Shown here: positions 1 through 26,432 of the stretch, one piece after another
Numbering within the stretch: the first letter of the stretch is position 1
Layout: each line of letters begins with the position of its first letter
Origin: Victivallales bacterium
Lineage (GTDB): Bacteria > Verrucomicrobiota > Lentisphaeria > Victivallales > Victivallaceae
NCBI GenBank assembly: GCA_030634125.1
Contig: DAOWBJ010000001.1
Coordinates: forward strand, 1 to 27,709
Length of the DNA: 27,709 bases
Reading direction: 5' to 3'
Made by a program: the position numbers and the translations under genes
The notes under the pieces: model-generated
What the model was told of the DNA's origin: nothing
The model's input: the letters and a program-made list of their open reading frames with translations, nothing else
Database searches by the model: none

Positions 1-2
1 CA

Positions 3-1640: not shown

Positions 1641-1656
1641 ATAATAAGGGGAACTA

Positions 1657-2427: not shown

Positions 2428-2436
2428 GAGGTACAA

Positions 2437-3189: not shown

Positions 3190-3196
3190 GTAAGAA

Positions 3197-4057
3197 ATGG
3201 CAAAAAAGCAGAATTTACCGCCAGGAATAAGCAGATTCGATGTTGAACAGCCTGAAATGACATCGAGTTCAGACGACGATATGCGCTTGAAGGAAACAAT
3301 AAAAGAAGCGTTCCTGGAAGCATTGCGCGAACATCATTCTGAAATCCGATCAGAAACACAGCAAGAAGGCGAAAAACGCGAAAAAAGAATCGCGGACGAA
3401 GAAGAAGCGAGTCCCAAAGGATTGTCAGCCGCTTTCGAATATGTCAAAAATGAAATAACCGGCGGGATTTTTGATAAAGAAGGAGGAGGACTGACCGCGA
3501 CGCAGGTCGGCGCTTTAACAACAGTTGGAACCGGAATATCAAGCTTAACTGACCCGATGACATCAAATTTGCGTACAGCGATAGATGTTGGACGGCAGGC
3601 GACAAAAGCGTCAATTTATACTGGCACAAGCGCAGCTTTAACCGCTGGTTCCGCAGGACAAATGGACACAATGTCCAAACACCAATTATCGAAATGGGCT
3701 TCTGATATCGCGGTGGCGTTATTCGACGGAATAACACGGAAAATAAGCATGATGGAGTCGGAAACCGTATCGGGATTAGGCGGACAATTTCAGGAATTGC
3801 AAAAAGCAGGACTTTTGGAGAAACTATCGCACACTGAAAAGAGTGAACTCGCAGATATTTATGCAGCGCAAGCAAAACGATCAGTTGACGCACAAACGCA
3901 AGCTGCAAAATATGGCGGCGCAGCGGTCGGACGCACTTTAGACGAAAGGGAAGCGGGATATATTGAAGTTAAAATGCGGGGCGCCCAAGAACAGAAACAA
4001 ACCGATATCGATCAATTAATTAAATCTTATAAAGTAAAGAAAGTTGATGACAGGTGA
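3197..4057 (+). CDS. Ala/Gly/Thr-rich helical protein, 286 aa, short tape-measure-like or ejection protein
   Basis: Charged coiled-coil N-terminus, a G/A/T-rich hydrophobic middle and a helical Ala/Gln-rich C-terminus; lies just upstream of Dit/hub-like genes. Confidence 0.45.
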   Translation: MAKKQNLPPGISRFDVEQPEMTSSSDDDMRLKETIKEAFLEALREHHSEIRSETQQEGEKREKRIADEEEASPKGLSAAFEYVKNEITGGIFDKEGGGLTATQVGALTTVGTGISSLTDPMTSNLRTAIDVGRQATKASIYTGTSAALTAGSAGQMDTMSKHQLSKWASDIAVALFDGITRKISMMESETVSGLGGQFQELQKAGLLEKLSHTEKSELADIYAAQAKRSVDAQTQAAKYGGAAVGRTLDEREAGYIEVKMRGAQEQKQTDIDQLIKSYKVKKVDDR

Positions 4058-4060
4058 TAA

Positions 4061-5461: not shown

Positions 5462-5469
5462 GGAATATT

Positions 5470-7755: not shown

Positions 7756-7764
7756 GGAGCGAAA

Positions 7765-8001
7765 ATGATTACAGAACGCGATGTCGATAAATACGTGAAA
7801 TTTATTACACCTGTAGAACCGTGTCCACCAGACACGATAGCTCAAATACGAAATGTTGACGGCGAAATGATTATTGTTCATGCGATGAAACTTGGAATAT
7901 TAATAAGATTCGACTCACAAGAAGAATTTACCGAATCTACGACGATAATCGAAGTCGCACGCTGTGAGCATTGCGGAAGCATCACTGGTGAAAAAAAATA
8001 G
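7765..8001 (+). CDS. Small hypothetical protein, 78 aa, with C-terminal CxxC
   Basis: SD AAGGAG; in the operon; ends RCEHCGSITGEKK. Confidence 0.8.
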   Translation: MITERDVDKYVKFITPVEPCPPDTIAQIRNVDGEMIIVHAMKLGILIRFDSQEEFTESTTIIEVARCEHCGSITGEKK

Positions 8002-8010
8002 GAGAATAAA

Positions 8011-11000: not shown

Positions 11001-11130
11001 CGACTCTGTGAACTCGATGACAGTTACTGGTAATGGTGTTGAAACAATAGATGACGATTTAAGTCAAACCCTTGCTCCTTATGAGGCATTAAAGATATAT
11101 GCAAACAGCACAAAATGGGGGTCAATATAA
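8011..11130 (+). CDS. Tail tip / fibre / receptor-binding protein, 1039 aa
   Basis: SD AGGAG. Modular: acidic His-rich N-half, Pro-rich hinge, an N/G/Y/T/A-rich beta-helix-like region (to TNYAIYVAGG), and a C-terminal module (TYTLLAVAAAGVGKVVTIKN...ETIDD...ALKIYANSTKW) common at the ends of phage fibre proteins. Confidence 0.75.
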   Translation: MSGGAVLGAWDNSLGRDHRGYNSAAATAYIARITGDYPDYTLTDGGEKGARYFTPPASIGGAGKGITFTETKGYGYWAPLLMLTNVYINRNAEENVEGGYAGIRPELLANFDYNTVDGTLQPVIEKEKCANDGKPTLLGQVYLQTQATDASNYQRLIYPIVEMIADHTGEDSIHSTAVYGTYDGGLDRRINAGMHTFWWVKQRENSKWNIAWNQRESDQDDTGYGFECHLGDAEGTPTILNESTENPSDIIEGTAADEREDHTTLAYCSWLKYGHHHPGHSKNDKHKYGENSDGESINANHIWMKSFFYYNQQLDAPLDYEPVYNPRPGPLPNRVRVHFQTDPDRKHDFELGARQDIHYWWAEAVFDPPTWTPPTRINGVPPEEPIDTGYVPVSVDDTNVYETSRGGKYTTSHQRNTKRVLKIKEANSPFQIGSPGFVARAETKTQDGQEYGGEWGPTENKETSYETWDPKEYEYGTPIGRIPENSGYNHIYPLAQEEVKEQKYVLSPIIAHMNFIGKIDAQKEWGYSEQTENSNFDGGTANGGVWITPPEFTYKVPDSGTYSDTFFGFHHSMSFGWGAVDNDNINNDGAIFSLSGSSGSYDLNLDFYNATPASSAGVFNVNGYISATEVGGAGGFWLPDDTQIGFGNTAATPDASIYWQSANNRLRMTADRIYVDETQTSTIASYNLQEAIFRINPGANTARQYFAGKDTLFLHSVNNYTSFSGARYIAAHNYSTGTVSNLFGLFNQAYNVSSGQVNLLVAGDYDARSTQSGTAITMIAGQFKAYAQHSADVTIGYGLKILGGNYGTGNYTQYNGIRLMTPVNVGGGALGTAVQLYIEDGTAAGTNYAIYVAGGECLFNASGNQVDFGINSDTVTILKVDGTNNLIAFGDTGGANYMTINDTGKLQPFGTANYLSTTGNPGITENGTDVQQYDLTVENGLIVAFTEKEAVSDVRVINANQTMLITDQIVECTNAITYTLLAVAAAGVGKVVTIKNFDSVNSMTVTGNGVETIDDDLSQTLAPYEALKIYANSTKWGSI

Positions 11131-11906
11131 TGAGTCAATTTAATGTTATGCGCGGTGAATATGAATCAGATTTGTTCGATTATATAAAAATTGACAAAAC
11201 AACAAACACTTTACAAACAATTGAATATCCTCACCATGAGATTCATTCAGGAAATCATTATTATCTTGAAGGATATATAACTTTAGGAGTAGGTGGGAAT
11301 TTGTTCGTAAAACTTGTAACACCAAATACTGCAAAATGGGGACATTTTGTTTGGGAATTGCATTCAAGCGGTATTTTAACGACAACACTTGAGGAAGATG
11401 CAACAGGCGGCATGGCTGGAGGGTTAAGACCAACAATTCACGCAAACAACAGGAATATAGATTGCTGGACTGGATTTCACACTGGCGGCGCACACGCAAC
11501 AATTTTAACAGATGCAACAAAGGCGTGGACGATTGATGCGCTTATTGGGTATCAAGTGTTTAATACAAAAGATGGATCATCGGGAATAATTGTCTCGAAT
11601 ACACCGACAACTGCAACTGTAATCGCGTTAGTTGGTGGCACAGCAAATCAATGGGCGTTAAATGATAATTATGAAATAAACAAATCAGGCTTTGTGATTA
11701 CATCTGGAGTAACTGTGAATACTGGACATACTCAAATATTAAGCAACACAAGTTTTGGTACGAAGTCAGCAGGCGGAATATCATCAAGGATTGAAGAAAT
11801 AATTCTAAAACAAAATACTGTATATTTAAGAAGCTTTGCATCAGGCACAGCAGCTAATATAGTCGGTTTTAAAGCAAGTTGGTACGAACATACAGACAAA
11901 CATTGA
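11130..11906 (+). CDS. Beta-rich structural protein, 258 aa
   Basis: More likely starts at ATG 11130, overlapping the upstream stop (TAATG), than at 11115. Carries TNTLQTIEYPHHEIHSGNHY and a Thr/Gly-rich internal module. Confidence 0.7.
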   Translation: MSQFNVMRGEYESDLFDYIKIDKTTNTLQTIEYPHHEIHSGNHYYLEGYITLGVGGNLFVKLVTPNTAKWGHFVWELHSSGILTTTLEEDATGGMAGGLRPTIHANNRNIDCWTGFHTGGAHATILTDATKAWTIDALIGYQVFNTKDGSSGIIVSNTPTTATVIALVGGTANQWALNDNYEINKSGFVITSGVTVNTGHTQILSNTSFGTKSAGGISSRIEEIILKQNTVYLRSFASGTAANIVGFKASWYEHTDKH

Positions 11907-11926
11907 TATAAGGATGAGGAGAAAAC

Positions 11927-12325
11927 ATGAGCGACGAACAAAAAGGACTGACATCTGAAGAAACCCAAAGATTAAGCTCAGGGAATCTTCAAGAGCGAGC
12001 AATCGGACATTTGCTGAATAATTCCGAACGCACAGCACAGGAAATATCTGAAATAAAAACAGATATTTCAGAGATCAAGCAATCGAATATAAAATCTATA
12101 AATAAAAGCGATAATTTAGAGATTCGCACTCACAGAATAGAAAAGAACGTTATGGAAATGAAAGCGAATTATGAAAATAGCGCGGTAAAAAAACTTGCTG
12201 AGTTCATCGAGAATGGAAAGAGGTTTATTTTGACCGGGAAAAAATTGTGGCTTTTTGCTGGTGCGCTCATCGCTCTTATCTCAGGTATTACAATTGCAGT
12301 ATTATATATCAAAGACATTCTTTAA
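11927..12325 (+). CDS. Coiled-coil protein with C-terminal TM helix, 132 aa (XhlA-like holin architecture)
   Basis: SD GAGGAG. Heptad-like stretch (ISEIKTDISEIKQSNI...LEIRTHRIEKNV) then a hydrophobic helix LWLFAGALIALISGITIAVLYI; sits where lysis genes usually do. Confidence 0.6.
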   Translation: MSDEQKGLTSEETQRLSSGNLQERAIGHLLNNSERTAQEISEIKTDISEIKQSNIKSINKSDNLEIRTHRIEKNVMEMKANYENSAVKKLAEFIENGKRFILTGKKLWLFAGALIALISGITIAVLYIKDIL

Positions 12326-12336
12326 CAGGAGGATTT

Positions 12337-12888
12337 ATGTCAACAAAATGGTATCATTGGTTAATTAGCGTTGTGGTTTGTATCAGCGGAATCATGGCTG
12401 TGTCAGTAGATATTCCGCCAGAAATGCAAACAATTCTTGTCGCAATTTCCGCGTTTATACTCGGGATAATGAAAACTAAACTTCCGACATTGCCGCCGGT
12501 CGTTGTCGATATCCTGACCGTCGGGATTACAACACTGATCCGGTATTTCAAGAAGAAGAACCGCCCACCGCAGTATTGTCTATTATTTCTATTATTCGTT
12601 CCTTTATTATTATTCGGATGCTCTGTAAATCTGTATGCTGAAAAAATGTCGAAAATCGCTGTTCAGGACTGCCAATCATTATTTTTAGATAGATTACCTG
12701 GCATGGTCCCGAAACCGTTTACACAAAATGAAATAGAACTATATTTAACAGGATTCATGCGCGCGAATAAAGTCAGTCAGGCAGATTCGCTTGAAATCAT
12801 CAAACAATTACGTGAAAACGGATACAAAGTAAACAAAAATATTCAAAATATATTAATGAATTATGGGATAGAATTATTACCGGAATAG
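12337..12888 (+). CDS. Multi-TM membrane protein with internal lipobox-like signal, 183 aa (holin/spanin-like candidate)
   Basis: The real start is probably ATG 12337 after AGGAGG, not 12247. Two N-terminal TM helices, then KKKNRPPQYCLLFLLFVPLLLFGC (Cys95). Confidence 0.65.
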   Translation: MSTKWYHWLISVVVCISGIMAVSVDIPPEMQTILVAISAFILGIMKTKLPTLPPVVVDILTVGITTLIRYFKKKNRPPQYCLLFLLFVPLLLFGCSVNLYAEKMSKIAVQDCQSLFLDRLPGMVPKPFTQNEIELYLTGFMRANKVSQADSLEIIKQLRENGYKVNKNIQNILMNYGIELLPE

Positions 12889-12896
12889 GAGAAAAA

Positions 12897-13112
12897 ATGG
12901 ACTCAAAATTTAATTTAGATGACATAATAACAGCCGCGAAAGACTCGCAGCTGTGTAGCCCGGAATGGCTTGATTTTTTATTGGAGAAAGCCGAAAACTG
13001 TAAAACGAACCGGGAATTTCTATTACTCGAAGTACATTTCGAATCAGAACTCAAGGAAATCGGAAATAAAATGTTCTGGAATTTCCTCAAAGTCCTGCTA
13101 AAACTACTATGA
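12897..13112 (+). CDS. Hypothetical protein, 71 aa
   Basis: SD AGGAG; last gene of the + block. Confidence 0.75.
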   Translation: MDSKFNLDDIITAAKDSQLCSPEWLDFLLEKAENCKTNREFLLLEVHFESELKEIGNKMFWNFLKVLLKLL

Positions 13113-13337
13113 TTCGCGAAAACTGATTAAAAATTCTCCAGTGTCTCTAAAACGTTTTAATTCGATATCTCGTTTATACTCGAATTTTACCATTTCATCA
13201 ATTTGAAGTTTATTTAATCCTGAATGTATCGTTTCAGCAATAATATTCCATGCTAACATAACTTCGGGGTTTCCCTGTTTTTCTGCGAACTGAGCTTGAT
13301 ATTCAGCATATCTTTTCAACATATTTATATCAATCAT
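13107..13337 (-). CDS. Hypothetical protein, 76 aa
   Basis: SD GGAG; last gene of the leftward block. Confidence 0.75.
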   Translation of the reverse strand: MIDINMLKRYAEYQAQFAEKQGNPEVMLAWNIIAETIHSGLNKLQIDEMVKFEYKRDIELKRFRDTGEFLISFRES

Positions 13338-13368
13338 TACTAATTCTCCAATAAATCAACATTTTTCC

Positions 13369-13405
13369 TATTTGTTGCTGTATTTCAATAATTCTGAACC
13401 TAAAA
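13369..13405. repeat. 37-bp direct repeat, copy 1
   Basis: tatttgttgctgtatttcaataattctgaacctaaaa; 36/37 identical to 13789-13825. Confidence 0.95.
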
Positions 13406-13576
13406 TCTCGGTTTTACATAAAATCCAACTGTTTTAAGCGGTTTCCCAATTTGTGGAAATTCTTCAAATATTGGGAACACATCCATTGGCGGTGGAACTA
13501 ATCCTTTTATGATGTATTCATTTTCTCTGCGCTTTTTTTCTGCTTTAGCGGCTTCAATCATCTTTTCACTCATCAT
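13400..13576 (-). CDS. Hypothetical protein, 58 aa (not in ORF track)
   Basis: Hand translation MMSEKMIEAAKAEKKRRENEYIIKGLVPPPMDVFPIFEEFPQIGKPLKTVGFYVKPRF*; SD GAGGA; overlaps the end of the upstream gene. Confidence 0.7.
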   Translation of the reverse strand: MMSEKMIEAAKAEKKRRENEYIIKGLVPPPMDVFPIFEEFPQIGKPLKTVGFYVKPRF

Positions 13577-13778
13577 TCCTCACTTTCTGTGTTATTTTCT
13601 GCATATCATTTATAATGTCTAATTCAGCCCTTTTGAATATTGCCATTTGTTCATATTTCTTATTGTGTTTATCAAAATGATATTTCCACGCATCAGTGTT
13701 TTCTTTCATATACTTGCTTCGTGTTTCGCTAAGTTCTTTAAGTTGATTCGATAATTCTTGTAGTGCGTTTTTAGACAT
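13566..13778 (-). CDS. Hypothetical coiled-coil protein, 70 aa
   Basis: SD AAGGAGG. Confidence 0.8.
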   Translation of the reverse strand: MSKNALQELSNQLKELSETRSKYMKENTDAWKYHFDKHNKKYEQMAIFKRAELDIINDMQKITQKVRNDE

Positions 13779-13787
13779 GGTTCCTCC

Positions 13788-13958
13788 TTATTTATTGCTG
13801 TATTTCAATAATTCTGAACCTAAAACGCGTACTTTGTGTAAACCGCGAATCCTTTTCAGTTGACCGCTGGATATTCTCACCCGCACGGACGTTTCACTTA
13901 TTTTAAGTATCTTCGCACACCCTTCTAACGTGTAAACCTTGTTCTCGATTATTTCCAT
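13788..13958 (-). CDS. Excisionase-family (HTH_17/MerR-like) DNA-binding protein, 56 aa (not in ORF track)
   Basis: Hand translation MEIIENKVYTLEGCAKILKISETSVRVRISSGQLKRIRGLHKVRVLGSELLKYSNK*, fitting the YT.eE.A.iL.vS..Tv...I..G.L...R.....Ri...dL..y pattern; SD GGGGTG. Confidence 0.8.
   Translation of the reverse strand: MEIIENKVYTLEGCAKILKISETSVRVRISSGQLKRIRGLHKVRVLGSELLKYSNK
13789..13825. repeat. 37-bp direct repeat, copy 2 (3' end of the xis-like gene)
   Basis: tatttattgctgtatttcaataattctgaacctaaaa, exactly 420 bp from copy 1. Confidence 0.95.
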
Positions 13959-14015
13959 ATATCACCCCACACTTTAGTATTAAAACACGGTTAAAACTCG
14001 CACCTGCGCAAAGTC

Positions 14016-14348
14016 TCAGCGTCGGTATTCGCGCGGATATTTCATTCTCAACGTATCAACGTTCGCGAATAAAATCGTAAGGATTTTTTCATAATTTTCC
14101 ATAAGAGATTCTAAGAAGGTATCCTGGTTGATAAAAATATCAGGCAGAAATTCGTTCCCTTCGAGTTCTTCCGTAGAAATACCGGAAAGGGCTTGGAAAA
14201 TATCAGTTTTTATACTCGACATTCTCGTATCAAGAGAAACATCGGCGTCAATCATCGCTTGATGCGCATCCGCAAGCAATATTTTGTCTTTTTCAAAGAA
14301 TCTACCATCAGATGTTTGAAAACCGTCTACTCTTTTAATTTCAGTCAT
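14016..14348 (-). CDS. Hypothetical protein, 110 aa
   Basis: SD GAGGAG; N-terminal GFQTSDGRFFE motif of a type common in small phage proteins. Confidence 0.8.
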   Translation of the reverse strand: MTEIKRVDGFQTSDGRFFEKDKILLADAHQAMIDADVSLDTRMSSIKTDIFQALSGISTEELEGNEFLPDIFINQDTFLESLMENYEKILTILFANVDTLRMKYPREYRR

Positions 14349-14360
14349 TGTTTAATCTCC

Positions 14361-14630
14361 TCAATGTTTTGTTTTTTTGTTTAGTTCTTCCCATTTTCTT
14401 AAGCAATCACGGCGACGTTTTGATGCATCGTCATATTCCTTAGTGAGTGTTTTATTCCCAGCATTGAGATTTTCACAAATCAAAGCCGCATCGAGATATT
14501 CGGACCATGCGGTAGATCTTTCGCGGTCGATTTTGTCCTGGATCCTTCTTTTACGTGTAGAGTTCCGCAACACCGCATAAATCGCCAGCGCCAAGAAAAA
14601 AAACATTATCAATATATCAGCTTCACTCAT
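14361..14630 (-). CDS. Membrane-anchored hypothetical protein, 89 aa
   Basis: N-terminal hydrophobic helix ILIMFFFLALAIYAVL followed by a basic RKRR patch; SD GAGGA. Confidence 0.75.
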   Translation of the reverse strand: MSEADILIMFFFLALAIYAVLRNSTRKRRIQDKIDRERSTAWSEYLDAALICENLNAGNKTLTKEYDDASKRRRDCLRKWEELNKKTKH

Positions 14631-14658
14631 AAATCCTCGCTTTCTTCATCGTTTTTTA

Positions 14659-14919
14659 TTATGTGCCAACATTTTCGATGTTTTTTAGTATTTTCTCTAG
14701 TTCTTCAGCTTTTGCTTTGACTGCCCGCATAAATGCGTTTACATCTTCCTCATAGCTTGTGTCTGGATCATAATATTCTATATCAAATAATCTGTTAAGT
14801 TTCTTTGCTATTTCTTCGCAGAAAATCATGTCGTATATTAATGACCACTCTGCCCCGCTGTCCCAGATTGCTTTTGCTTCGTTGTAGATGCTAAGAAATT
14901 TATTAATTTTATTCTTCAT
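14659..14919 (-). CDS. Conserved phage hypothetical protein, 86 aa
   Basis: Contains YYDPDTSYEEDVNAF, a motif I recognise from small phage ORFs of unknown function. Confidence 0.8.
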   Translation of the reverse strand: MKNKINKFLSIYNEAKAIWDSGAEWSLIYDMIFCEEIAKKLNRLFDIEYYDPDTSYEEDVNAFMRAVKAKAEELEKILKNIENVGT

Positions 14920-14927
14920 CGTTCCCG

Positions 14928-14951
14928 CCTTTCCGCCCGCAGGCTGTTAAT
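14928..14951 (-). promoter_or_regulatory. Intergenic UNCG-hairpin + SD cassette, copy 1
   Basis: Minus strand ATTAACAGCC-TGCG-GGC-GGAAAGG; near-identical to 15199-15221. Confidence 0.55.
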
Positions 14952-14955
14952 ATTA

Positions 14956-15189
14956 TTAAAACGCCCTTGAACAAACAGATTTAATACATTTTTTGCATTT
15001 TTCGGATGAATATAGCGAACTTACTGGATGATTTACAATGCGCATTGTTAGGAATTGTTTATATTTTCGGCAAAACCCGAGATTTTCACTTATTGCGGAT
15101 TCCCTTAAATTGGGACATCTTTTTTTTCTTGTTCGACAAAACGTAGAATCATTATTCATAATTTCTTCTGTTTTTCTCTTAGGTAACAT
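14956..15189 (-). CDS. Cys-rich hypothetical protein, 77 aa
   Basis: C-x6-C, FC..Y and C-x2-C-x3-C motifs suggest metal binding; SD AAAGGGG. Confidence 0.7.
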   Translation of the reverse strand: MLPKRKTEEIMNNDSTFCRTRKKRCPNLRESAISENLGFCRKYKQFLTMRIVNHPVSSLYSSEKCKKCIKSVCSRAF

Positions 15190-15198
15190 AAATTTTCC

Positions 15199-15221
15199 CC
15201 TTTCGCCCGAAGGCTGTTAAT
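15199..15221 (-). promoter_or_regulatory. Intergenic UNCG-hairpin + SD cassette, copy 2
   Basis: Minus strand ATTAACAGCC-TTCG-GGC-GAAAGG, beginning at the upstream gene's TAA. Confidence 0.55.
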
Positions 15222-15459
15222 CATCATAAATTCCGTAGGTAAAATCATTGGAAGCGAGAATATTCACCGTGATTAAATATCCGATGCACCAAATATTGAA
15301 AAAGATCCGATTGTAATATCCCTTGCTCAAACATTCGTCAACAACCAGCTGGATATCGGTATCAGGCGCGAAAGAGTGAACATTCCCGAACTGGTCCGTA
15401 AAAGAATACCTGACAATAGAATAATCCTTCAAAACCGCCTTAATTACGTCTAATCGCAC
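15217..15459 (-). CDS. Hypothetical protein, 80 aa
   Basis: GTG start after AGGAGG. Confidence 0.7.
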   Translation of the reverse strand: MRLDVIKAVLKDYSIVRYSFTDQFGNVHSFAPDTDIQLVVDECLSKGYYNRIFFNIWCIGYLITVNILASNDFTYGIYDD

Positions 15460-15620
15460 GGATCACCCTCCTGTACGTATTTTATCCTCGTAGCGAAGTA
15501 AATCACGCACACGAACATTATGAGAGAAATTATCCCTGTGTCGCAGATACCGCCGATGCACAAAACCAGAAATATAAGTGAAACCCAGACATAATTCTTC
15601 GATGCTTGCAAAACCGACAT
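15450..15620 (-). CDS. Small two-TM membrane protein, 56 aa
   Basis: Probable start is ATG 15620 after TTGGAGG; the track start at 15632 lies inside the SD. Two hydrophobic helices. Confidence 0.75.
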   Translation of the reverse strand: MSVLQASKNYVWVSLIFLVLCIGGICDTGIISLIMFVCVIYFATRIKYVQEGDPCD

Positions 15621-15650
15621 AATTTCCTCCAAAAATTATATTATTATCAA

Positions 15651-15950
15651 TTAATCAGCTTGAATCTTTCCATGTTTAATTATTGAACTAACCATCCAAT
15701 CATAACCACAAAAACCTTTTAACTTCTTTTGGGTTCCTTTGACATCCTTTTTAGATATTTCCTCAACAGAAACACTTGCACACCATCCATCACCAAAATT
15801 GTAGTAATACGATCCGTTGTCTAAAATTGTTTTTGCTTTGTCTTCATCGGATGCACGAATAATACCATAAAAAGAACCTTCACCAGACCATTTACCGTTC
15901 CAAGAGTTATTATTCGGCATTGAAAGAGTAAATAAAATATGAACCATCAT
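15651..15950 (-). CDS. Conserved aromatic-rich phage protein, 99 aa
   Basis: Probable start is ATG 15950 after TTGGAGG. Motifs LSMPNNNSWNGKWSGEG, YYYNFGDGWCASV and KGFCGYDWMVSSII match a family I recognise from phage genomes; function unknown. Confidence 0.8.
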   Translation of the reverse strand: MMVHILFTLSMPNNNSWNGKWSGEGSFYGIIRASDEDKAKTILDNGSYYYNFGDGWCASVSVEEISKKDVKGTQKKLKGFCGYDWMVSSIIKHGKIQAD

Positions 15951-15983
15951 TTCCTCCAAAAAGTGTTAAAATTGCAAAAGTCA

Positions 15984-16202
15984 TTAATTTGAGTGTTGAT
16001 TAATAGAATCCTCATACATTTGCTTCCCTAATTGCACAACCAGGAAGTCAAGACAGAAAAGAACCTCTTTTTTAGTCAGTGGAACCAGGTTGATAATATC
16101 GGAAAGTTCTTTTTTGTCTAAAACACACGCACGCACGATCTGACGCACATTAAACGGCAGCGTTTTAGTCTCTTCGATAAATTTCCGTTGTATTTCATCC
16201 AT
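15984..16202 (-). CDS. Hypothetical protein, 72 aa (weak HTH-like C-half)
   Basis: SD AAGGAG; helical pattern only. Confidence 0.7.
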   Translation of the reverse strand: MDEIQRKFIEETKTLPFNVRQIVRACVLDKKELSDIINLVPLTKKEVLFCLDFLVVQLGKQMYEDSINQHSN

Positions 16203-16204
16203 AA

Positions 16205-16411
16205 TTACGATGTCTCCTTAAAAACGAACCAATCTTCTCTGAGAATCCAATGAGTCTTGATTTCTGGTTCATATCCCGAAGAACAAGTAAAAGAATCATC
16301 TTTGATTGAAAACCAATGTGGATTACCATTATCAAAATGTGAACCGAATGCACCGAGATAAAACTTTTCACCTTTTCGCATTCTTGGTAACGCTTCCTCG
16401 AATTTCATCAT
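16205..16411 (-). CDS. Mini Tad2/DUF2829-like protein, 68 aa
   Basis: Begins MKFEEALPRMRKGEK and ends WILREDWFVF, matching the family's terminal motifs; SD AGGAGG. Confidence 0.5.
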   Translation of the reverse strand: MMKFEEALPRMRKGEKFYLGAFGSHFDNGNPHWFSIKDDSFTCSSGYEPEIKTHWILREDWFVFKETS

Positions 16412-16628
16412 TTCCTCCTAAAAAGTTGAATTTAATCAATAATTTATTTTTTATCAGTTTTGCTTCGGCAAGTCCGCATAATTCACCTTCAGCGAATCCA
16501 GTTTTCCACAATTCATAAAACAGCACTTTCGGGAAAGGTTTTCCATCAAGCCGGACATCAAGTTCAGGAAACCCAGCTTTTTCGTACAATTTGTTAAAAA
16601 TCGGTTGCAATTCAGAATCTTTCATCAT
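16368..16628 (-). CDS. Hypothetical protein, 86 aa, first gene of the leftward block
   Basis: SD GGGGG; directly downstream of the promoter array; its 3' end overlaps the next gene's RBS. Confidence 0.7.
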   Translation of the reverse strand: MMKDSELQPIFNKLYEKAGFPELDVRLDGKPFPKVLFYELWKTGFAEGELCGLAEAKLIKNKLLIKFNFLGGNDEIRGSVTKNAKR

Positions 16629-16965: not shown

Positions 16966-17652
16966 ATGAGTTTCATATCTGATATAAAAAAAGAATTGGG
17001 AAAGCGTATTAAGGTAATTCAGGCATTAGAATTAGGCACTTCAAGCACTGGTTATTTGAAATCAGAAACGAAATTACGATCAAAATTATTACGTTTTATC
17101 ATTCTGGGTAAAATGCGGAAGCGCAGCAAGTATTTCGAACTACAGGAATATTACGAACATGACGCTTTAACCATTATTATTGATAAAATACTGAAATTAG
17201 TTGATTCTGGATTCAAACTGCGTTACAGGGACATCAAAGCGACCGTGATTTCATGGAAAGTGGTTCACAAAAAAGGAAAAATACCTAAATTTCATGTAGA
17301 AAAGCTCCAGGTCAAGATAAAAAAGCATTATTTCAGATGTAAGTTGAGATATTATCCTTATTGCCCCAATTGTGGAAATATGGCTTACAAAATTAAAATA
17401 GATTATAATACGCAACCTGTATGGAATACATGCGGTCATATGATTGCATACTTTAACAGTGGTGCTGATATTGAAATATTTTGTACCTGTGGAACACTTC
17501 ACGATATAAATTATGGAGTAATTAGTGTACATCGTAACTCATTTATTGAATCACAAGTGAAATATCAGCCTAAAATCATCGAATTAGTGAAAAAAAGGTT
17601 TGAAAGACGTTTTCCACCAATATTTTTACCAGGAGGTAATCATGTCCAATAA
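16966..17652 (+). CDS. Basic protein with Cys/His metal-binding motifs, 228 aa
   Basis: Very Lys/Arg rich; CPNC...CGH...CTCGTLH; first gene after the rightward promoter. Confidence 0.75.
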   Translation: MSFISDIKKELGKRIKVIQALELGTSSTGYLKSETKLRSKLLRFIILGKMRKRSKYFELQEYYEHDALTIIIDKILKLVDSGFKLRYRDIKATVISWKVVHKKGKIPKFHVEKLQVKIKKHYFRCKLRYYPYCPNCGNMAYKIKIDYNTQPVWNTCGHMIAYFNSGADIEIFCTCGTLHDINYGVISVHRNSFIESQVKYQPKIIELVKKRFERRFPPIFLPGGNHVQ

Positions 17653-17842: not shown

Positions 17843-18090
17843 AAGAAGCTTCACACAAATTGAACGCATTGTTAATGCGGGTGCATGAATTTATCGGATC
17901 GACCGTGCAGATCCTTGACATGGACGTCCAAGAACGCACCCGCGCTGCTTTTGTTGAAATATCCGACGTAATTCAACAGGTGCAGGGAATCCTCGAGAAT
18001 AACTGCGACAAACCTGTAAAACCACGCAAACCACGTAAAAAATCGGCGAACAACAACAAAAAAGTAGAGAAAACCGATGAAACAGAGTAA
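17839..18090 (+). CDS. Hypothetical protein, 83 aa, basic C-tail
   Basis: ATGA overlap with the upstream stop. Confidence 0.75.
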   Translation: MKEASHKLNALLMRVHEFIGSTVQILDMDVQERTRAAFVEISDVIQQVQGILENNCDKPVKPRKPRKKSANNNKKVEKTDETE

Positions 18091-18244
18091 TAAATACGGG
18101 TTTTTAACCCCAGGTAATCCAAAGGATGATAAACACCGCCTATTTGATGAAATTAAAATAATTCATTGCTGCATGGATCAACCCGACCAAGAAAAAAGAA
18201 CAACATATTCTGATATTATAAAGGAAATGAAACATGGTATATAA
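18077..18244 (+). CDS. Hypothetical protein, 55 aa (not in track)
   Basis: Hand translation MKQSNKYGFLTPGNPKDDKHRLFDEIKIIHCCMDQPDQEKRTTYSDIIKEMKHGI*; fills the gap and overlaps both neighbours. Confidence 0.55.
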   Translation: MKQSNKYGFLTPGNPKDDKHRLFDEIKIIHCCMDQPDQEKRTTYSDIIKEMKHGI

Positions 18245-18407
18245 AAACGGTGTATCCTGTCCTTTTTTTACAGAAATCGTGGAAGCAATCAAGAAAGTAC
18301 ATGAAGATTTCGGGGATACACCAATTGACAATGATTTTGTACAATTACTGATTAAACTCGAAAATTACGTGATAAATAAAATTGAGGATCACAAAAAACG
18401 AAAATAA
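18234..18407 (+). CDS. Hypothetical protein, 57 aa (not in track)
   Basis: Hand translation MVYKNGVSCPFFTEIVEAIKKVHEDFGDTPIDNDFVQLLIKLENYVINKIEDHKKRK*; SD AAGGA. Confidence 0.65.
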   Translation: MVYKNGVSCPFFTEIVEAIKKVHEDFGDTPIDNDFVQLLIKLENYVINKIEDHKKRK

Positions 18408-18416
18408 CCACCAAAA

Positions 18417-18442
18417 TTAACTTTTACGAAAGGGAAATCATG
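18417..18442 (+). promoter_or_regulatory. Start-associated sequence, copy 1
   Basis: TTAACTTTTACGAAAGGGAAATCATG; 24/26 identical to 19308-19333. Confidence 0.6.
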
Positions 18443-18733
18443 GCAGTAATACATTTTGATAACAGGATAATTAACTTGGACACGGGAATTGTTGTCGTTT
18501 TTACATCATCGGGATTAGAAAAAGGTGAATTAACTTGTATTCCTGGAATACAACTATATTCAATGCACGTTCCAGACGAAAGTTGTGTAGAAAACATTAC
18601 TTTTCGTTCACATGCAAAAAAAACACATGATGAAGCGAAAGAATTTGCACGGAAGAAAACAGTGCAAATGTTTTCAAGTGAAAGACAAGTATTTCTAACA
18701 AACCCTCATTCCAAGGATGAAAATATTAAGTAA
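18440..18733 (+). CDS. Hypothetical protein, 97 aa
   Basis: SD AAAGGG. Confidence 0.75.
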   Translation: MAVIHFDNRIINLDTGIVVVFTSSGLEKGELTCIPGIQLYSMHVPDESCVENITFRSHAKKTHDEAKEFARKKTVQMFSSERQVFLTNPHSKDENIK

Positions 18734-18878
18734 TTAAACTCCAGGAGATTAAAAATCATTCTAAAAACATTAAAACTCACACGGAGGATATCATGCGATG
18801 TTAATAAATGAAATTGACGCCAGATTAAGGACAAATATGTGAAGGGGGACATATTTTATCCTGTTTGTCTGGGTTTCT

Positions 18879-19019
18879 ATGCGCATCGTAGCGGATCGGC
18901 GCGAGCATACCATCCCCACCGATTATGGGAAGTCAGAACCATGCAATAAGATAGGGATTAACCCCGGGGATGTCGCAGCCCTCGCGAATCTGACAGCGGA
19001 AATTAAAACTGAAAGGTAA
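18879..19019 (+). CDS. Possible 46-aa ORF (alternative to a structured RNA)
   Basis: MRIVADRREHTIPTDYGKSEPCNKIGINPGDVAALANLTAEIKTER*; stops 3 nt before the next ATG but has no good SD. Confidence 0.3.
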   Translation: MRIVADRREHTIPTDYGKSEPCNKIGINPGDVAALANLTAEIKTER

Positions 19020-19022
19020 ATC

Positions 19023-19277
19023 ATGCCAAACTTGGACGTAATAATGGAATGTTCGTTACTGGCTTATGACGTACTCAAATATGATGAGAAATCGAAAGAA
19101 ATCATCAAAGCACTCGACGAAGAAGAAACAGACGCAGGGATTATCGAAGCTATAAAAAAAGCAGCGCAAAGATTAGACGATGTTAATCCTTTAGTGGCGA
19201 AGACAATACGCAAAAAAATGGGATTTACGGATCCAGGTGAAAAAAAAATCAGTAAAGATGTCAACTGCACCGGATAA
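19023..19277 (+). CDS. Hypothetical helical protein, 84 aa
   Basis: SD GAAAGGT. Confidence 0.75.
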   Translation: MPNLDVIMECSLLAYDVLKYDEKSKEIIKALDEEETDAGIIEAIKKAAQRLDDVNPLVAKTIRKKMGFTDPGEKKISKDVNCTG

Positions 19278-19307
19278 GACAAATTATGTGAAACATAGGT
19301 ATTAACT

Positions 19308-19333
19308 TTAACTTTTACGAGAGGAAAATCATG
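19308..19333 (+). promoter_or_regulatory. Start-associated sequence, copy 2
   Basis: TTAACTTTTACGAGAGGAAAATCATG. Confidence 0.6.
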
Positions 19334-20431
19334 AATTATGATGAATTGAATACCGGGGATTTATTTTGTTTTATTGATGTACAAGCGCCGTACATAAAAA
19401 CATGCATCGGTCATACAAACCTTGAAACAGGGGTGAGAAAAACAGAAAGCGATGCAAAAACTCATGTGCTAAAGAGGAGTTTAGATGAAGTAGGTCGTTA
19501 CTGTGCAATCTCGGCAGCTGACTTGGATGAAAGAATCAAATTGTTTCTTGCTTATGCAGAGCAAGAAAAAATGGACAACGAAAAAGTTTCTCCAGAACCA
19601 GATGAAAAACCGAACGGATTTGACGAACCCGCCAAAAAACACAAAACACGCGAACAAGTCTTCGATGAATCCAGGATAATATTGAAAAAAGAATTAGAAG
19701 CAGCTCTAAATGAGTTAGAAGAGAAACCAAAACCCGAAAAATATGGAATTACAGTCGATGTTTCAAAAGAAGGTGAAAAACCGAAAGAAATATTCATCCC
19801 AGTTACGGGAAATGATGAAAAAATCATTAAAAGACCGTTGAACGCTAACTGCTTAGGCATGTCTGTGACTGACTGCCCAAATGAAAAAAATGATTACTCC
19901 ATAGGAACAGACGATTGCAAAACTTGCGAATATTTTCGTGGGGTATCTAAAATTAGTATTCCTACCGAAACCGAATTAATTAAAGAAGCGGGTTTTGTCG
20001 AATGTAAATGGCTTTCAGAAGATGAAAAAAAGGGTGAAAAACACAAGTTCGCGCAAAATGATGAAAAAGAAGCGATACCGCCAGGAATGAAAATTATTCG
20101 GAAATATGTAAGTCAGCGCATACTTGACTTGCAAGCTGTTGGGAACCGGATCATTGTTTTACCTGACACGCCCGAAACAATGTCACAAGGCGGCATTCAC
20201 ATACCCCAGAAATCCGAAGAAGCTGTCGAATTCGGCTGGGTAATCTCTGAAGGTCCCGATTGTACAAATAAATGGGTTGGTAAATATATTTGGTACGGGC
20301 GCTGGTTAGGCGCGAAGGCTGAACTTGACGGGCTGGAACTCAGGGTTTTTGATGAAGATGAAAATTATCCGCTCGCTGTGGTACAAACAAACAAAATTCT
20401 CAGACTCCAGGTCAGTCCGACAGACAATTAA
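19331..20431 (+). CDS. Multidomain protein with C-terminal GroES/Cpn10-like domain, 366 aa
   Basis: The C-terminal ~95 aa (LQAVGNRIIVLPDTPETMSQGGIHIPQKSEEAVEFGWVISEG...VGKYIWYGRWLGAKAELDGLELRVFDEDENYPLAVV) align by eye with GroES, including the mobile-loop GGIxI; preceded by about 265 aa containing a Cys cluster. Confidence 0.85.
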   Translation: MNYDELNTGDLFCFIDVQAPYIKTCIGHTNLETGVRKTESDAKTHVLKRSLDEVGRYCAISAADLDERIKLFLAYAEQEKMDNEKVSPEPDEKPNGFDEPAKKHKTREQVFDESRIILKKELEAALNELEEKPKPEKYGITVDVSKEGEKPKEIFIPVTGNDEKIIKRPLNANCLGMSVTDCPNEKNDYSIGTDDCKTCEYFRGVSKISIPTETELIKEAGFVECKWLSEDEKKGEKHKFAQNDEKEAIPPGMKIIRKYVSQRILDLQAVGNRIIVLPDTPETMSQGGIHIPQKSEEAVEFGWVISEGPDCTNKWVGKYIWYGRWLGAKAELDGLELRVFDEDENYPLAVVQTNKILRLQVSPTDN

Positions 20432-20921: not shown

Positions 20922-21179
20922 ATGGCTGATTTTAAAATTGAACCAGCTTATTTAGATGCTTTGCTGTCAACGGATGCACTAAAACCGCCAAAAATGTATG
21001 TATTTCATGTGAGATATAGAACGCAACGAAAAACAAGATATGTTGTTTACGCAGGTTTCAAAATAAAAGTTATGAAGGAATATATTTATGAGGAGCTGCA
21101 ATATTTACGTCAACAGAAACCTATCTGGATAGAATCAATTGAATGTTGTGAAATAAACAGAGGATTTCATGCAAAATAA
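20922..21179 (+). CDS. Hypothetical protein, 85 aa
   Basis: SD AAGGT; overlaps the next gene. Confidence 0.7.
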   Translation: MADFKIEPAYLDALLSTDALKPPKMYVFHVRYRTQRKTRYVVYAGFKIKVMKEYIYEELQYLRQQKPIWIESIECCEINRGFHAK

Positions 21180-21750
21180 TGATAATGTTGATAAAATGTT
21201 GAAAAACGCGCGGGATGTTGATTTATCACCACGCAAGGCGAAGTCCACGCGCGGAGGTAGTGAAACCGTGAATGCAGGCGCGGAGTATGAACGTGACGTC
21301 GCCAGGCGTCTAACAGAAGCGTTTAATCATGACTTTTCGCGCCGGGTGCGTAAATATAAAGGTGATCACGACCTGGAAACCCCGTATGAATTCCCGTTCA
21401 TCATCGAGGTCAAAGTAATGGCTTCTATAGACATTTATTCCGCTGTCGCTAACATCCAGAGAGAAAAAAAGAATAAAACGGGTAAGAAGACAGAAGTTAC
21501 CACGCAATTGATGAAATGGTGGCTTCAAGCTGTGAATCAGTGCAATAGAGTTTCAACAAAGCGCGGGATCATTAAATATCCGCTGTTAATCTGGAAACAG
21601 AAGGGTAAACAGTGGCTGGTTTCCGCGCCCATACCTTTTATGAGCTTTGTCGGACAATTCGCGGTCCTGCATCATTATGGCTTCGGTATTATGACATTAA
21701 AACGGTTTACTGAAATAAATTACGAAACAATCATCAATTACAAGGAATAA
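21169..21750 (+). CDS. Hjc-like Holliday junction resolvase (PD-(D/E)XK), 193 aa
   Basis: GAEYERDVARRL...R...GDHDL...FIIEVK catalytic pattern and WWLQA...YPLLIWKQKGKQWLV, typical of phage Hjc-type resolvases. Confidence 0.75.
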   Translation: MQNNDNVDKMLKNARDVDLSPRKAKSTRGGSETVNAGAEYERDVARRLTEAFNHDFSRRVRKYKGDHDLETPYEFPFIIEVKVMASIDIYSAVANIQREKKNKTGKKTEVTTQLMKWWLQAVNQCNRVSTKRGIIKYPLLIWKQKGKQWLVSAPIPFMSFVGQFAVLHHYGFGIMTLKRFTEINYETIINYKE

Positions 21751-24045: not shown

Positions 24046-24402
24046 ATGGATTATTCTCCAGCATTGATTAAATTAAAAAAAGGATGCTTCATCGCTCGCA
24101 AGAATTGGGGAAAGGGGACATTTATCTATCTTGTTGAAGGTTCTTATATAAAAAGGTCCATTTTACGCAATGAAGCCGCGACCGCCGACGATTATTATCT
24201 TAAAATGATGAAATTAAGAGGTATTCCGACACACATTAGTATCAATTCTCATATTGATATGCACACTTCAGACGATAGTATTATTGTTGGTTGGGTTGCA
24301 TCACAAGCTGATACGTTGGCGAACAATTGGTATGTTCTCTACGAACCTGAGGAAACTAATACAACGCTTGATAATTTCACCGGTATTTGTGATCCTGCAT
24401 AA
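24046..24402 (+). CDS. tad2: Tad2-like / DUF2829 anti-defence protein, 118 aa
   Basis: ALIKLKKGCFIARKNWGKGTFIYLV...INSHIDMHTSDDSIIVGWVASQADTLANNWYVL matches the DUF2829 pattern (AL..LK.G..vaR.gW.g.gmfiyL...HIDm.t.dg....GW..SQ.D.LA.DW). Confidence 0.85.
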   Translation: MDYSPALIKLKKGCFIARKNWGKGTFIYLVEGSYIKRSILRNEAATADDYYLKMMKLRGIPTHISINSHIDMHTSDDSIIVGWVASQADTLANNWYVLYEPEETNTTLDNFTGICDPA

Positions 24403-24931: not shown

Positions 24932-25345
24932 ATGGGCAAAATAGTAACGACGATAATAACCTGGCAGTCTAAGGAAATATTATTGCTTCCGAAGTCGCCA
25001 ATTCCCTGGTTTACTATTCAGGTTACAAGGACGCCGGTCAGGCACCGGAAATATAAAACTGGTGCATGGTTACCAATCTTAGGCAATCATCCTCGCGCAA
25101 TTATAGGCACTCCTGCGGGCGATTCAGAGTATTCCGACTATTTAACACGAATTAGTTCAAAACGAGCGTTCAAGGCAGCTTTTGAGATGCTGCGCAGGGA
25201 TCAATGGGTGTGTTTGATATGTTTCTGCGCTGAATATGAAAAATGTCATCGTCGCGTACTATTAAATTGGTTGGTCGAGAATTATCCGGAAGATTTCAGG
25301 AAATATGAATCATTCGCACTTATCGAGAAAGTTTACAAGAAATGA
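24932..25345 (+). CDS. DUF488-like protein, 137 aa
   Basis: C-terminal VCLICFCAEYEKCHRRVLLNWL matches the DUF488 signature (LlC.e.....CHR..l...L); the N-half is divergent. Confidence 0.6.
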   Translation: MGKIVTTIITWQSKEILLLPKSPIPWFTIQVTRTPVRHRKYKTGAWLPILGNHPRAIIGTPAGDSEYSDYLTRISSKRAFKAAFEMLRRDQWVCLICFCAEYEKCHRRVLLNWLVENYPEDFRKYESFALIEKVYKK

Positions 25346-25655: not shown

Positions 25656-26432
25656 ATGGGACGTAATTCAGGAATACCTTGGACACAAGGGACATGGAAT
25701 CCTATATCGGGTTGTACTTTCGCATCGGAAGGTTGCCAAAATTGCTATGCAAAGCGCGACCACAATAAAAGATATAACGCTTATCAAGCAGGTAAGAAAT
25801 TACCCGAGTGTTATTCACAACCGTTCCATAATGTTAGGTATTTTCCTTCACGTTTTGCTTATATAACACCTAAACAAAAACCGCGCACATATTTTGTGTG
25901 CAGCACCGGCGATTTGTTCCACGAACACGTTAAATTCCAATGGACATACGAAATATTTGAAAAAATGCAAGAATGTCATCAACATACTTTCCTATTATTA
26001 ACAAAACGCCCCGGCGTAATGATAAAAGCATTAGAAAATGTTTATTACCATTTATTAGATGTAGGAAAATATGATCAGCAAAAAAGATATCTAAATAATG
26101 TGTGGTTAGGCGCGACAGTAGAATCACAAGAACAATTATATAGAATTGATGAATTGCTCAGTGTAAAAGCTGCAAAACATTTCATTTCGGTCGAACCGAT
26201 GTTGTCAGGCGTTTATATACCGGTAGAACAATTGCAGAAATTAGATTGGGTGATAATAGGCTGTGAATCAGGAAAATACAGGCGCGAATGTCACGATATA
26301 TGGGTAAAAAACCTAATTAAATTATGCACGGCTTTCGATATACCCGTATTCCTTAAACAGTTAGAAATAAATGGTAAAATAGTCAAAGAACCGGAAATAT
26401 CCGGTAAAAAGTATCTACAATTCCCTAAATAA
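25656..26432 (+). CDS. DUF5131 / phage Gp37Gp68-family radical-SAM-like protein, 258 aa
   Basis: IPWTQGTWNPISGCTFASEGCQNCYA (Cx6Cx2C), FVCSTGDLFHEHV, HTFLLLTKRP, NVWLGATVE, FISVEPML, LDWVIIGCESG, VFLKQL. Confidence 0.95.
   Translation: MGRNSGIPWTQGTWNPISGCTFASEGCQNCYAKRDHNKRYNAYQAGKKLPECYSQPFHNVRYFPSRFAYITPKQKPRTYFVCSTGDLFHEHVKFQWTYEIFEKMQECHQHTFLLLTKRPGVMIKALENVYYHLLDVGKYDQQKRYLNNVWLGATVESQEQLYRIDELLSVKAAKHFISVEPMLSGVYIPVEQLQKLDWVIIGCESGKYRRECHDIWVKNLIKLCTAFDIPVFLKQLEINGKIVKEPEISGKKYLQFPK

What the first reader, a model, noticed from the sequence alone, without database searches (positions are those of the whole stretch)
19331..20431. Phage GroES domain fused to a ~265-aa multidomain N-terminal extension
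Seen: one uninterrupted 366-aa ORF with a small beta-domain, a charged helical/linker region, a Cys cluster (C-x7-C-x13-C-x2-C...C) and a GroES-like domain from ~20129 with an intact mobile loop (ETMSQGGIHIP). Only 6 residues separate EG and WVG, versus about 16 in E. coli GroES, so the roof hairpin is missing. Established: GroES is a ~10-kDa heptamer, and T4 gp31 also lacks the roof loop, enlarging the folding cage for capsid protein. Inference: a heptameric lid carrying seven large appendages could recruit specific substrates to host GroEL, redirect or block host chaperonin, or act as a scaffold. I know no characterised example of such a fusion.
Basis: partly seen in the sequence, partly recalled or inferred. 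Interest (0 to 1): 0.72.

Follow-up and report, generated by a model that had tools for sequence, protein, structure and literature searches.

The report
Phage GroES with long N-terminal arm
An uncultured cold-seep phage encodes a GroES-type chaperonin lid subunit fused in one reading frame to a ~250-residue front part found nowhere else. The lid domain is ordinary for phages; the fusion is real in the DNA, but it is a one-off and its function is untested.

Summary
Window 19331-20431(+) is one 366-codon ORF with a good Shine-Dalgarno site. Residues ~262-353 are a genuine Cpn10/GroES domain: Pfam 27.9 bits against a cut-off of 21.1, a profile of 62 relatives at E 9e-33, an AF2 model with pLDDT >90, and top Foldseek hits to GroES chains.

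The short roof and the GGIHIP loop are normal for this viral GroES subfamily, not special to this gene.

What is unusual is the front part, residues 1-243. It has no relative among 1.84 billion representative proteins, no Pfam or PHROG hit, and no confident fold.

The only close relative of the lid domain (P0002, 63% identical) is recorded as a stand-alone 124-aa protein. Its start aligns with residue 241 here. The fusion is therefore lineage-specific and seen once.

A second assembler, working on the same reads, bridges the junction with no indel.

Best reading (0.5): a phage co-chaperonin for host GroEL that carries an external arm with a probable metal-binding Cys cluster. Main rival: a recent, possibly neutral, gene fusion.

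This scan has noted other phage GroES fusions on other DNA (zinc fingers, an alpha-CTD-like domain), so appended lids may be a recurring theme. I found no paper describing one.

The parts
19308..19333 (+). 26-nt leader with the ribosome-binding site (GAGGA 19321-19325, 5-nt spacer, ATG 19331). It is a 92% copy of the leader of the 97-aa ORF at 18440.
19331..20431 (+). Whole ORF: 366 aa plus a TAA stop (P0001).
19331..19585 (+). Residues 1-85, the N-terminal head. It has three Cys (13, 25, 58) and predicted helices 39-58 and 62-85 (pLDDT 76-84 for residues 61-80 only). It has no relatives. It shows weak similarity (E 0.035) to the neighbouring 97-aa ORF at 18440.
19586..19846 (+). Residues 86-172, a K/E/P-rich linker: 43% charged, 9 Pro, with one long predicted helix at 107-131 (pLDDT 75-89). 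Otherwise low confidence.
19847..20059 (+). Residues 173-243, the Cys-cluster module: C174-x7-C182-x13-C196-x2-C199 ... C225, H238. Metal binding is inferred. It has no family hit and no confident fold.
20060..20428 (+). Residues 244-366, the part shared with the stand-alone relative P0002 (63% identity): a short N-terminal helix (251-265) followed by the Cpn10 beta-barrel.
20129..20359 (+). Pfam Cpn10 (PF00166) match, residues 267-343.
20168..20230 (+). Mobile-loop region, residues 280-300 (TPETMSQGGIHIPQKSEEAVE), with the G-G-I-H-I-P motif.
20252..20281 (+). Shortened roof, residues 308-317 (GPDCTNKWVG). The roof hairpin of cellular GroES is absent.
20087..20089 (+). Met253, the only in-frame start codon near the domain boundary. 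AGGA abuts the ATG with a spacer of 0, so there is no usable Shine-Dalgarno site.

Best explanation
The gene encodes a phage co-chaperonin of the viral 'GroES-only' kind. Its subunit carries a lineage-specific N-terminal arm of about 250 residues.

Shown:
- One ORF with one good ribosome-binding site.
- A C-terminal Cpn10 domain with the subfamily's mobile-loop motif and short roof.
- An N-terminal part that codes for protein but has no relatives.
- A groES-groEL operon in all 20 searched genomes of the putative host's genus, family and order (a PVC-group bacterium, if the binning is right).

Inferred:
- The Cpn10 domains assemble into a seven-fold lid that docks on host GroEL through the GGIHIP loops.
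- The N-terminus of Cpn10 lies on the outer rim of the dome (from the GroES/gp31 structures, recalled from memory and not tested here). The seven arms would therefore hang outside the folding chamber on flexible K/E/P-rich linkers.
- The Cys-cluster module binds a metal.
- The arm gives the lid an added specificity. It may bind phage clients or another partner, much as J-domain co-chaperones combine a chaperone-docking domain with a client domain.
For: - Single ORF with an SD at the proper spacing. Openness is far beyond chance, and the codon-position GC pattern is coding-like.
- Cpn10 membership: Pfam above the gathering score, phrog_3188, and a profile of 62 relatives built without the query that matches residues 262-353 at 99 bits, E 9e-33.
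- Fold: AF2 pLDDT >90 over residues 260-350. Foldseek top hits are GroES chains within GroEL-GroES complexes (TMt up to 0.73) and virioplankton GroES.
- The loop motif and short roof match the subfamily consensus and the published viral GroES features (PMC5649160).
- The domain is 63% identical to P0002 over 116 residues, so it is a conserved domain.
- There is no usable SD before Met253, the only internal start candidate.
- All 20 relatives from genus to order carry groES-groEL.
- The Logan contig of run X1 bridges 18000-20199 with no indel, confirming the junction in a second assembly.
- Other Cpn10 proteins among the hits carry added modules, including Cys-rich tails (P0115, P0150) and TIR (P0092).
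Against: - The fusion is seen once. The full-length protein is a singleton among 5.8 billion clusters and 1.84 billion representatives.
- The only close relative is recorded as a stand-alone 124-aa protein. There is therefore no comparative evidence that selection maintains the fused form.
- The N-terminal part gave no confident fold.
- Heptamer formation, GroEL binding, metal binding and expression are all untested.
- The phage contig was placed in the MAG by binning only, and the MAG itself holds no groESL (80% complete).
- The gene lies in the early block, not next to head genes as in many phage GroES cases.
Confidence: 0.5

Rival explanations
1. Recent, possibly neutral, gene fusion. A stand-alone 124-aa-type phage GroES gene lost its own start region or the upstream stop, and became joined in frame to one or more upstream early orphan genes. 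The lid domain still does the usual GroES job, either tolerating the arm or being made separately by weak internal initiation at Met253 or by cleavage. The arm adds nothing to chaperonin function.
For: - The nearest relative, P0002, is 124 aa, and its Met1 aligns with residue 241 of this ORF.
- No homologue of residues 1-243 exists anywhere, not even as a separate protein.
- Residues 6-51 weakly resemble the neighbouring 97-aa early ORF, and the two genes share a 26-nt leader. This suggests the head derives from a duplicated small early gene.
- The region is packed with small orphan ORFs.
Against: - There is no usable SD before Met253 and no other in-frame start nearby.
- No relic stop or SD is evident at the boundary.
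- The whole 366-codon frame is intact with a coding-like composition.
- Added modules on viral Cpn10 proteins recur in other lineages.
Confidence: 0.27
2. Docking hook rather than folding lid. The Cpn10 domain serves mainly to attach the N-terminal module to a seven-fold host ring, either GroEL or possibly ClpP. This would block or redirect the ring, or place an effector there, as an early host-takeover or counter-defence function.
For: - The gene sits in the early rightward block with a nuclease and a Tad2-like anti-Thoeris gene, not beside head genes.
- PDB entry 7ekq (CrClpP-S2c) contains Cpn20/Cpn23 co-chaperonin chains, and these are the best sequence match to this domain. Cpn10-type lids can therefore sit on a ClpP ring.
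- A TIR-Cpn10 fusion (P0092) shows the domain being reused in conflict-type proteins.
Against: - There is no direct evidence.
- The N-terminal part matches no known effector, anti-defence or PADLOC family.
- The domain keeps every feature of ordinary viral GroES.
Confidence: 0.18
3. Assembly or sequencing artefact. The long ORF comes from a chimeric join or an indel or substitution error that merges two genes.
For: - The fusion is a singleton from a metagenome bin.
- Logan's assembly breaks inside the gene at 20173-20199, with a step in depth from 9.45 to 11.9.
Against: - The Logan contig spans 18000-20199 with no indel, so it bridges the arm/Cpn10 boundary at ~20060.
- The break lies inside the Cpn10 domain, and that domain aligns continuously with P0002 across it.
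- Pieces of the arm are identical in contigs from two other samples: 19507-19823 and 19498-19691.
- Merging two same-frame genes would need the exact loss of a stop codon.
Confidence: 0.05

Closest known systems
Viral 'GroES-only' co-chaperonins of the virioplankton (Marine et al. 2017, ISME J, PMC5649160; phrog_3188)
   Same: The Cpn10 domain, a mobile loop with a polar middle residue, and roof-hairpin deletion. These proteins are the best structural matches in BFVD. The phage encodes no GroEL of its own.
   Different: The BFVD matches listed are 75-183 aa. This protein is 366 aa, with a 256-aa N-terminal part that is not Cpn10. It has no kinesin-like or head-gene neighbour.
T4 gp31 and RB49 CocO (phage co-chaperonins that replace GroES on host GroEL)
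   Same: Phage-encoded Cpn10-fold lid without the roof hairpin. gp31 (1g31, 2cgt) is found by Foldseek.
   Different: gp31 is a stand-alone ~12-kDa subunit with a longer mobile loop, and it is only a weak match here (E 1e-2). No N-terminal arm is known in either protein (from memory).
P0002, a 124-aa metagenomic protein (Logan contig of 7 kb)
   Same: 63% identical over residues 244-359, including the N-terminal helix, the loop and the short roof.
   Different: Recorded as stand-alone, with its Met1 aligned to residue 241 of this ORF. Its genomic context could not be fetched.
Chloroplast Cpn20 (tandem Cpn10; chains in PDB 7ekq)
   Same: A natural Cpn10 fusion protein. It is the best PDB sequence match (E 1.3e-6), and its first domain also lacks the roof insertion.
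   Different: In Cpn20 the added part is a second Cpn10 domain. Here the added part shows no Cpn10 signal at all.
Phage J-domain co-chaperone Rki of RB43 (PMC3486835): an analogy of principle only
   Same: A phage protein that combines a host-chaperone docking domain with an orphan part in order to redirect a host chaperone.
   Different: It belongs to a different chaperone system (DnaK) and is unrelated in sequence. The analogy is inference.

Membership tests
Cpn10 / GroES (PF00166) | Sequence match to the family profile above the curated threshold | tested here: met
   27.9 bits against a cut-off of 21.1, residues 267-343. A subfamily profile matches at 99 bits, E 9e-33.
Cpn10 / GroES (PF00166) | GroES beta-barrel fold | tested here: met
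   AF2 pLDDT >90 over residues 260-350. Foldseek gives probability 1.0 and TMt 0.65-0.73 to GroES chains.
Cpn10 / GroES (PF00166) | Mobile loop with a conserved Gly followed by a hydrophobic tripeptide that binds GroEL | tested here: inconclusive
   The loop has full length and the motif G-G-I-H-I-P. The middle residue is His rather than hydrophobic, as in 20 of 62 relatives and in the 23% of viral GroES with a charged or polar residue at the second or third loop position (PMC5649160). Binding competence was not shown.
Cpn10 / GroES (PF00166) | Heptameric ring | not testable with these tools
Cpn10 / GroES (PF00166) | Binds GroEL and caps the folding chamber | tested here: inconclusive
   A 1:1 complex prediction with GroEL from a same-genus genome gave no verdict. 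This is evidence neither for nor against. The partner exists in the host lineage.
Cpn10 / GroES (PF00166) | Stand-alone subunit of about 10 kDa | tested here: not met
   The protein has 366 aa, with 256 aa ahead of the domain. This is a typical trait rather than a strict definition, since Cpn20 is also a fusion.
Roofless phage co-chaperonins (gp31-like trait) | Absence of the roof beta-hairpin | tested here: met
   9-residue gaps against 3nx6. There are 8 residues between the flanking Gly residues, as in 45 of 62 relatives.
Tandem Cpn10 proteins (Cpn20-like) | A second Cpn10 domain in the same chain | tested here: not met
   hmmsearch --max at E<100 with the subfamily profile finds nothing in residues 1-243.
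Zinc-ribbon / zinc-finger modules | Paired CxxC knuckles or a match to a known Zn-binding family | tested here: inconclusive
   Only one CxxC (C196/C199) plus C174 and C182. There is no Pfam hit and no confident model.

The most novel reading that the evidence does not exclude
Phages build modular GroES lids. The Cpn10 ring would serve as a docking platform for host GroEL, and lineage-specific external modules (here a 250-residue arm with a metal-binding cluster) would select clients, place the chaperonin at an assembly site, or reprogramme it. That would give the chaperonin system adaptor-type co-chaperones comparable to the J-domain proteins of Hsp70.
Probability: 0.25. Interest if true: 0.75.

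Novelty: new variant of a known kind. Interest (0 to 1): 0.5.

Why it matters
GroES is regarded as a minimal, uniform lid. Client choice in the GroEL system is attributed to GroEL itself and, in T4, to the size of the chamber. A lid subunit carrying a large external module would be a different way for a virus to steer a host folding machine.

Together with the other appended viral Cpn10 proteins seen here (Cys-rich tails, TIR), it suggests that the Cpn10 ring is reused as a seven-fold docking scaffold.

On present evidence, however, this case is a single sequence from one metagenomic contig, with no conserved relatives and no functional data. It is a lead for experiment rather than a demonstrated new mechanism.

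Tried and rejected
- Searches for relatives of the fusion: the search for related loci in viral contigs with P0002 and with alignment A1 found nothing. Genome contigs with A1 found nothing. Metagenome contigs returned only ordinary or distant GroES genes, none fused. tblastn against 50,697 phage records found only two distant GroES genes. megablast of 9 kb found nothing. Forty relatives of the MAG had no match.
- GroEL binding: complex prediction with a same-genus GroEL plus residues 244-366 scored 0.13 against a mark of 0.32. No verdict.
- N-terminal part: folding residues 1-250 alone gave mean pLDDT 37. Two ESM Atlas look-ups (residues 1-245 and 140-250) gave no usable hit. PADLOC gave no hit. 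tblastn of the arm against the whole MAG found no paralogue. A profile test for hidden Cpn10 repeats in the arm was negative.
- Expression: no RNA holder is listed among the sequencing runs. Expression is therefore unknown.
- Other samples: contigs from X2 and X3 cover only parts of the arm and do not bridge the junction.
- The 97-aa ORF at 18440 has no homologues, so no profile could be built to test its weak likeness to the arm.
- Phage type: the structural ORFs (3-1640 and 5470-7752) match nothing in the phage collection, so the phage type stays undefined.
- Literature: four searches found no described phage GroES fusion. The library holds open-access papers only.

Full report
**What is there**

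Window 19331-20431(+) is one uninterrupted ORF of 366 codons ending in TAA. The frame is open for only 13 further codons upstream, with no earlier start. GAGGA lies at 19321-19325, 5 nt before the ATG. That is the spacing seen before most genes on this contig.

The reading frame is not open by chance. Stop trinucleotides make up 5.1% of the contig, which gives about 3e-6 for the 243 codons ahead of the Cpn10 domain. The longest open run in 200 shuffles of the contig was 178 codons. GC at codon position 1 exceeds positions 2 and 3 along the whole ORF, as in the neighbouring long genes.

**The C-terminal domain**

- Pfam Cpn10 matches residues 267-343 at 27.9 bits, above the 21.1 gathering score.
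- PHROGs gives phrog_3188 'co-chaperonin GroES', and nine NCBIfam GroES models match weakly.
- A profile built from 62 relatives, without the query, matches residues 262-353 at 99 bits, E 9e-33, with no gap at the roof.
- AlphaFold2 with that alignment gives pLDDT above 90 for about residues 260-350.
- Foldseek's best PDB matches are GroES chains in GroEL-GroES complexes (TMt up to 0.73). T4 gp31 appears further down.
- In the viral library the best matches are the 'uncultured virus' GroES proteins.

Among the 62 relatives, 45 have the same 8 residues between the two Gly residues that flank the roof. His is the commonest middle residue of the G-G-I-x-I-P loop motif, occurring in 20 of 62. Marine et al. 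2017 (PMC5649160) had already described roof-hairpin deletions, and found charged or polar residues at the second or third loop position in 23% of viral GroES.

**The N-terminal 243 residues**

An exhaustive phmmer search of 1.84 billion representative proteins returned 159 hits. In each of the 150 listed, apart from the query itself, the best-matching stretch lies in the C-terminal part (from residue 244 on, in one hit from 200). None has its best match in the arm. The full-length protein is a singleton in the 5.8-billion-cluster collection.

There is no Pfam, PHROG, NCBIfam or PADLOC hit in this part. It contains no hidden Cpn10 repeat, has no paralogue in the MAG, and gave no ESM Atlas lead.

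The AF2 models are of low confidence, apart from long helices at about 62-85 and 107-131.

By composition the part falls into three pieces:
- A head, residues 1-85, with three Cys.
- A K/E/P-rich linker, residues 86-172 (43% charged, nine Pro).
- A Cys-cluster module, residues 173-243 (C174-x7-C182-x13-C196-x2-C199, then C225).

Metal binding by the cluster is my inference.

**Is the fusion real?**

The window is a whole 27.7-kb contig of a cold-seep MAG. Logan's independent assembly of the probable source run has one contig covering 18000-20199 with no indel. It therefore bridges the boundary between the arm and the Cpn10-homologous part at about 20060.

Logan breaks at 20173-20199, inside the Cpn10 domain. 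The alignment to P0002 is continuous across that point. Pieces of the arm are identical in contigs from two other samples of the same study.

These are the same reads or low-coverage fragments, so the check is useful but not fully independent.

**Is the fusion conserved?**

No. The only close relative, P0002 (63% identity, E 6e-41), is recorded as a 124-aa protein. Its Met1 aligns with residue 241 here.

Among the 150 nearest Cpn10 proteins, this one has by far the longest extension that is not Cpn10 (256 aa). Next come:
- a TIR-Cpn10 fusion (140 aa);
- P0113, with 62 aa before and 99 aa after its Cpn10 domain;
- tandem or triple Cpn10 proteins;
- two proteins with Cys-rich C-terminal tails.

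Added modules on viral or metagenomic Cpn10 proteins are therefore not unique, but this arm is.

Notes from this scan report other phage GroES fusions on other DNA: N-terminal zinc fingers, an alpha-CTD-like domain and a zinc-ribbon tail. I did not test those notes.

**One product or two?**

Met253 is the only in-frame start near the boundary. Its AGGA abuts the ATG with no spacer, unlike the 4-8 nt seen elsewhere on the contig. The sequence therefore favours a single 366-aa product, although weak internal initiation or cleavage cannot be excluded.

**Context**

The contig has a rightward block of large orphan genes followed by lysis-like genes (1-13112). A leftward block of small genes follows (13107-16628). 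A divergent control region comes next, then a rightward early block starting at 16966.

The fusion gene lies about 2.4 kb into that early block, among small orphan ORFs. Downstream are:
- a RusA-like/PDDEXK_15 nuclease;
- a Tad2-like gene;
- DUF488;
- DUF5131.

The gene is not next to any recognisable head gene.

The MAG's RecA is closest to Kiritimatiellota, Victivallaceae and Lentisphaeria MAGs at 69-72%. The MAG (80% complete) has no groESL of its own. All 20 searched genomes from its genus to its order have a canonical groES-groEL operon. A GroEL partner should therefore exist if the binning reflects the host.

**Mechanism**

The best-supported reading is a phage co-chaperonin for host GroEL that carries external arms (confidence 0.5). 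The steps from 'Cpn10 domain' to 'heptamer on GroEL, with the arms outside' rest on established GroES/gp31 structural knowledge. I recalled this from memory and did not test it here. The one complex prediction gave no verdict.

The main rival is a recent and possibly neutral fusion of a stand-alone GroES gene with upstream early orphan gene(s) (0.27). It is supported by:
- the stand-alone relative;
- the orphan status of the arm;
- a 26-nt leader shared with the 97-aa ORF at 18440, which also resembles residues 6-51 weakly (E 0.035).

A third reading treats the Cpn10 ring as a hook that brings the arm to a seven-fold host ring, GroEL or ClpP, for takeover or counter-defence (0.18). It draws on the early-gene context and on PDB 7ekq, in which Cpn20/Cpn23 chains are part of a ClpP complex.

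An artefact is unlikely (0.05).

**Verdict**

This is a new variant of a known kind (phage GroES), interesting mainly as one more case of appended viral GroES lids. It is limited by being a single, uncharacterised sequence.

Noticed in passing
window 18417-18442 and 19308-19333: A 26-nt leader (TTAACTTTTACGAnAGGnAAATCATG) is repeated at 92% identity in front of two early genes, the 97-aa orphan ORF at 18440 and the GroES fusion. The two N-termini are weakly alike (E 0.035, both Cys aligned). This may be a duplicated small early gene.
   Followed up: partly
P0092 (237 aa, ENA metagenome contig of 1 kb): A TIR domain (TIR_2 at 6e-18, with ThsB-like PADLOC hits) is fused to a full Cpn10 domain (2e-17). 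This domain pair suggests that Cpn10 is reused in defence-type proteins.
   Followed up: partly
P0012, P0005, P0010, P0082, P0056, P0106 (metagenomic hits): Tandem and triple Cpn10-like proteins occur outside chloroplasts. P0012 (371 aa) has three Cpn10-profile matches.
   Followed up: partly
P0115 and P0150 (metagenomic Cpn10 hits): These Cpn10 proteins have Cys-rich C-terminal tails that look like zinc ribbons (for example CPEC...CRNC).
   Followed up: no
window 20173-20199: Logan's assembly of the source run breaks here, inside the Cpn10 domain, and mean word depth steps from 9.45 to 11.9. This may be a strain variant or a graph branch. It is unexplained.
   Followed up: no
whole MAG G000: No GroEL, and no Cpn10 other than the phage one, is present in the 80%-complete bin. 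All 20 relatives searched have a groES-groEL operon, so the host operon is probably unassembled or unbinned.
   Followed up: yes
window 1-13112: The large rightward ORFs (545, 466, 761, 1039 aa and others) have no Pfam or PHROG hits, apart from phrog_8198 for 2437-3189. Two of them were checked against 50,697 phage records (3-1640 and 5470-7752) and matched nothing. The virion module is highly divergent.
   Followed up: partly
window 21169-21750, 24046-24402, 24932-25345, 25656-26432: Family hits downstream in the same early block: PDDEXK_15/RusA-like nuclease (1e-11), Tad2-like anti-Thoeris domain (6e-17), DUF488 (3e-6) and DUF5131 (8e-62).
   Followed up: partly
window 16966-17652: The first gene of the rightward early block encodes a 228-aa orphan protein with several Cys pairs (CPNCGN..., CGH..., CTCG). 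It has no Pfam, PHROG or PADLOC hit.
   Followed up: partly
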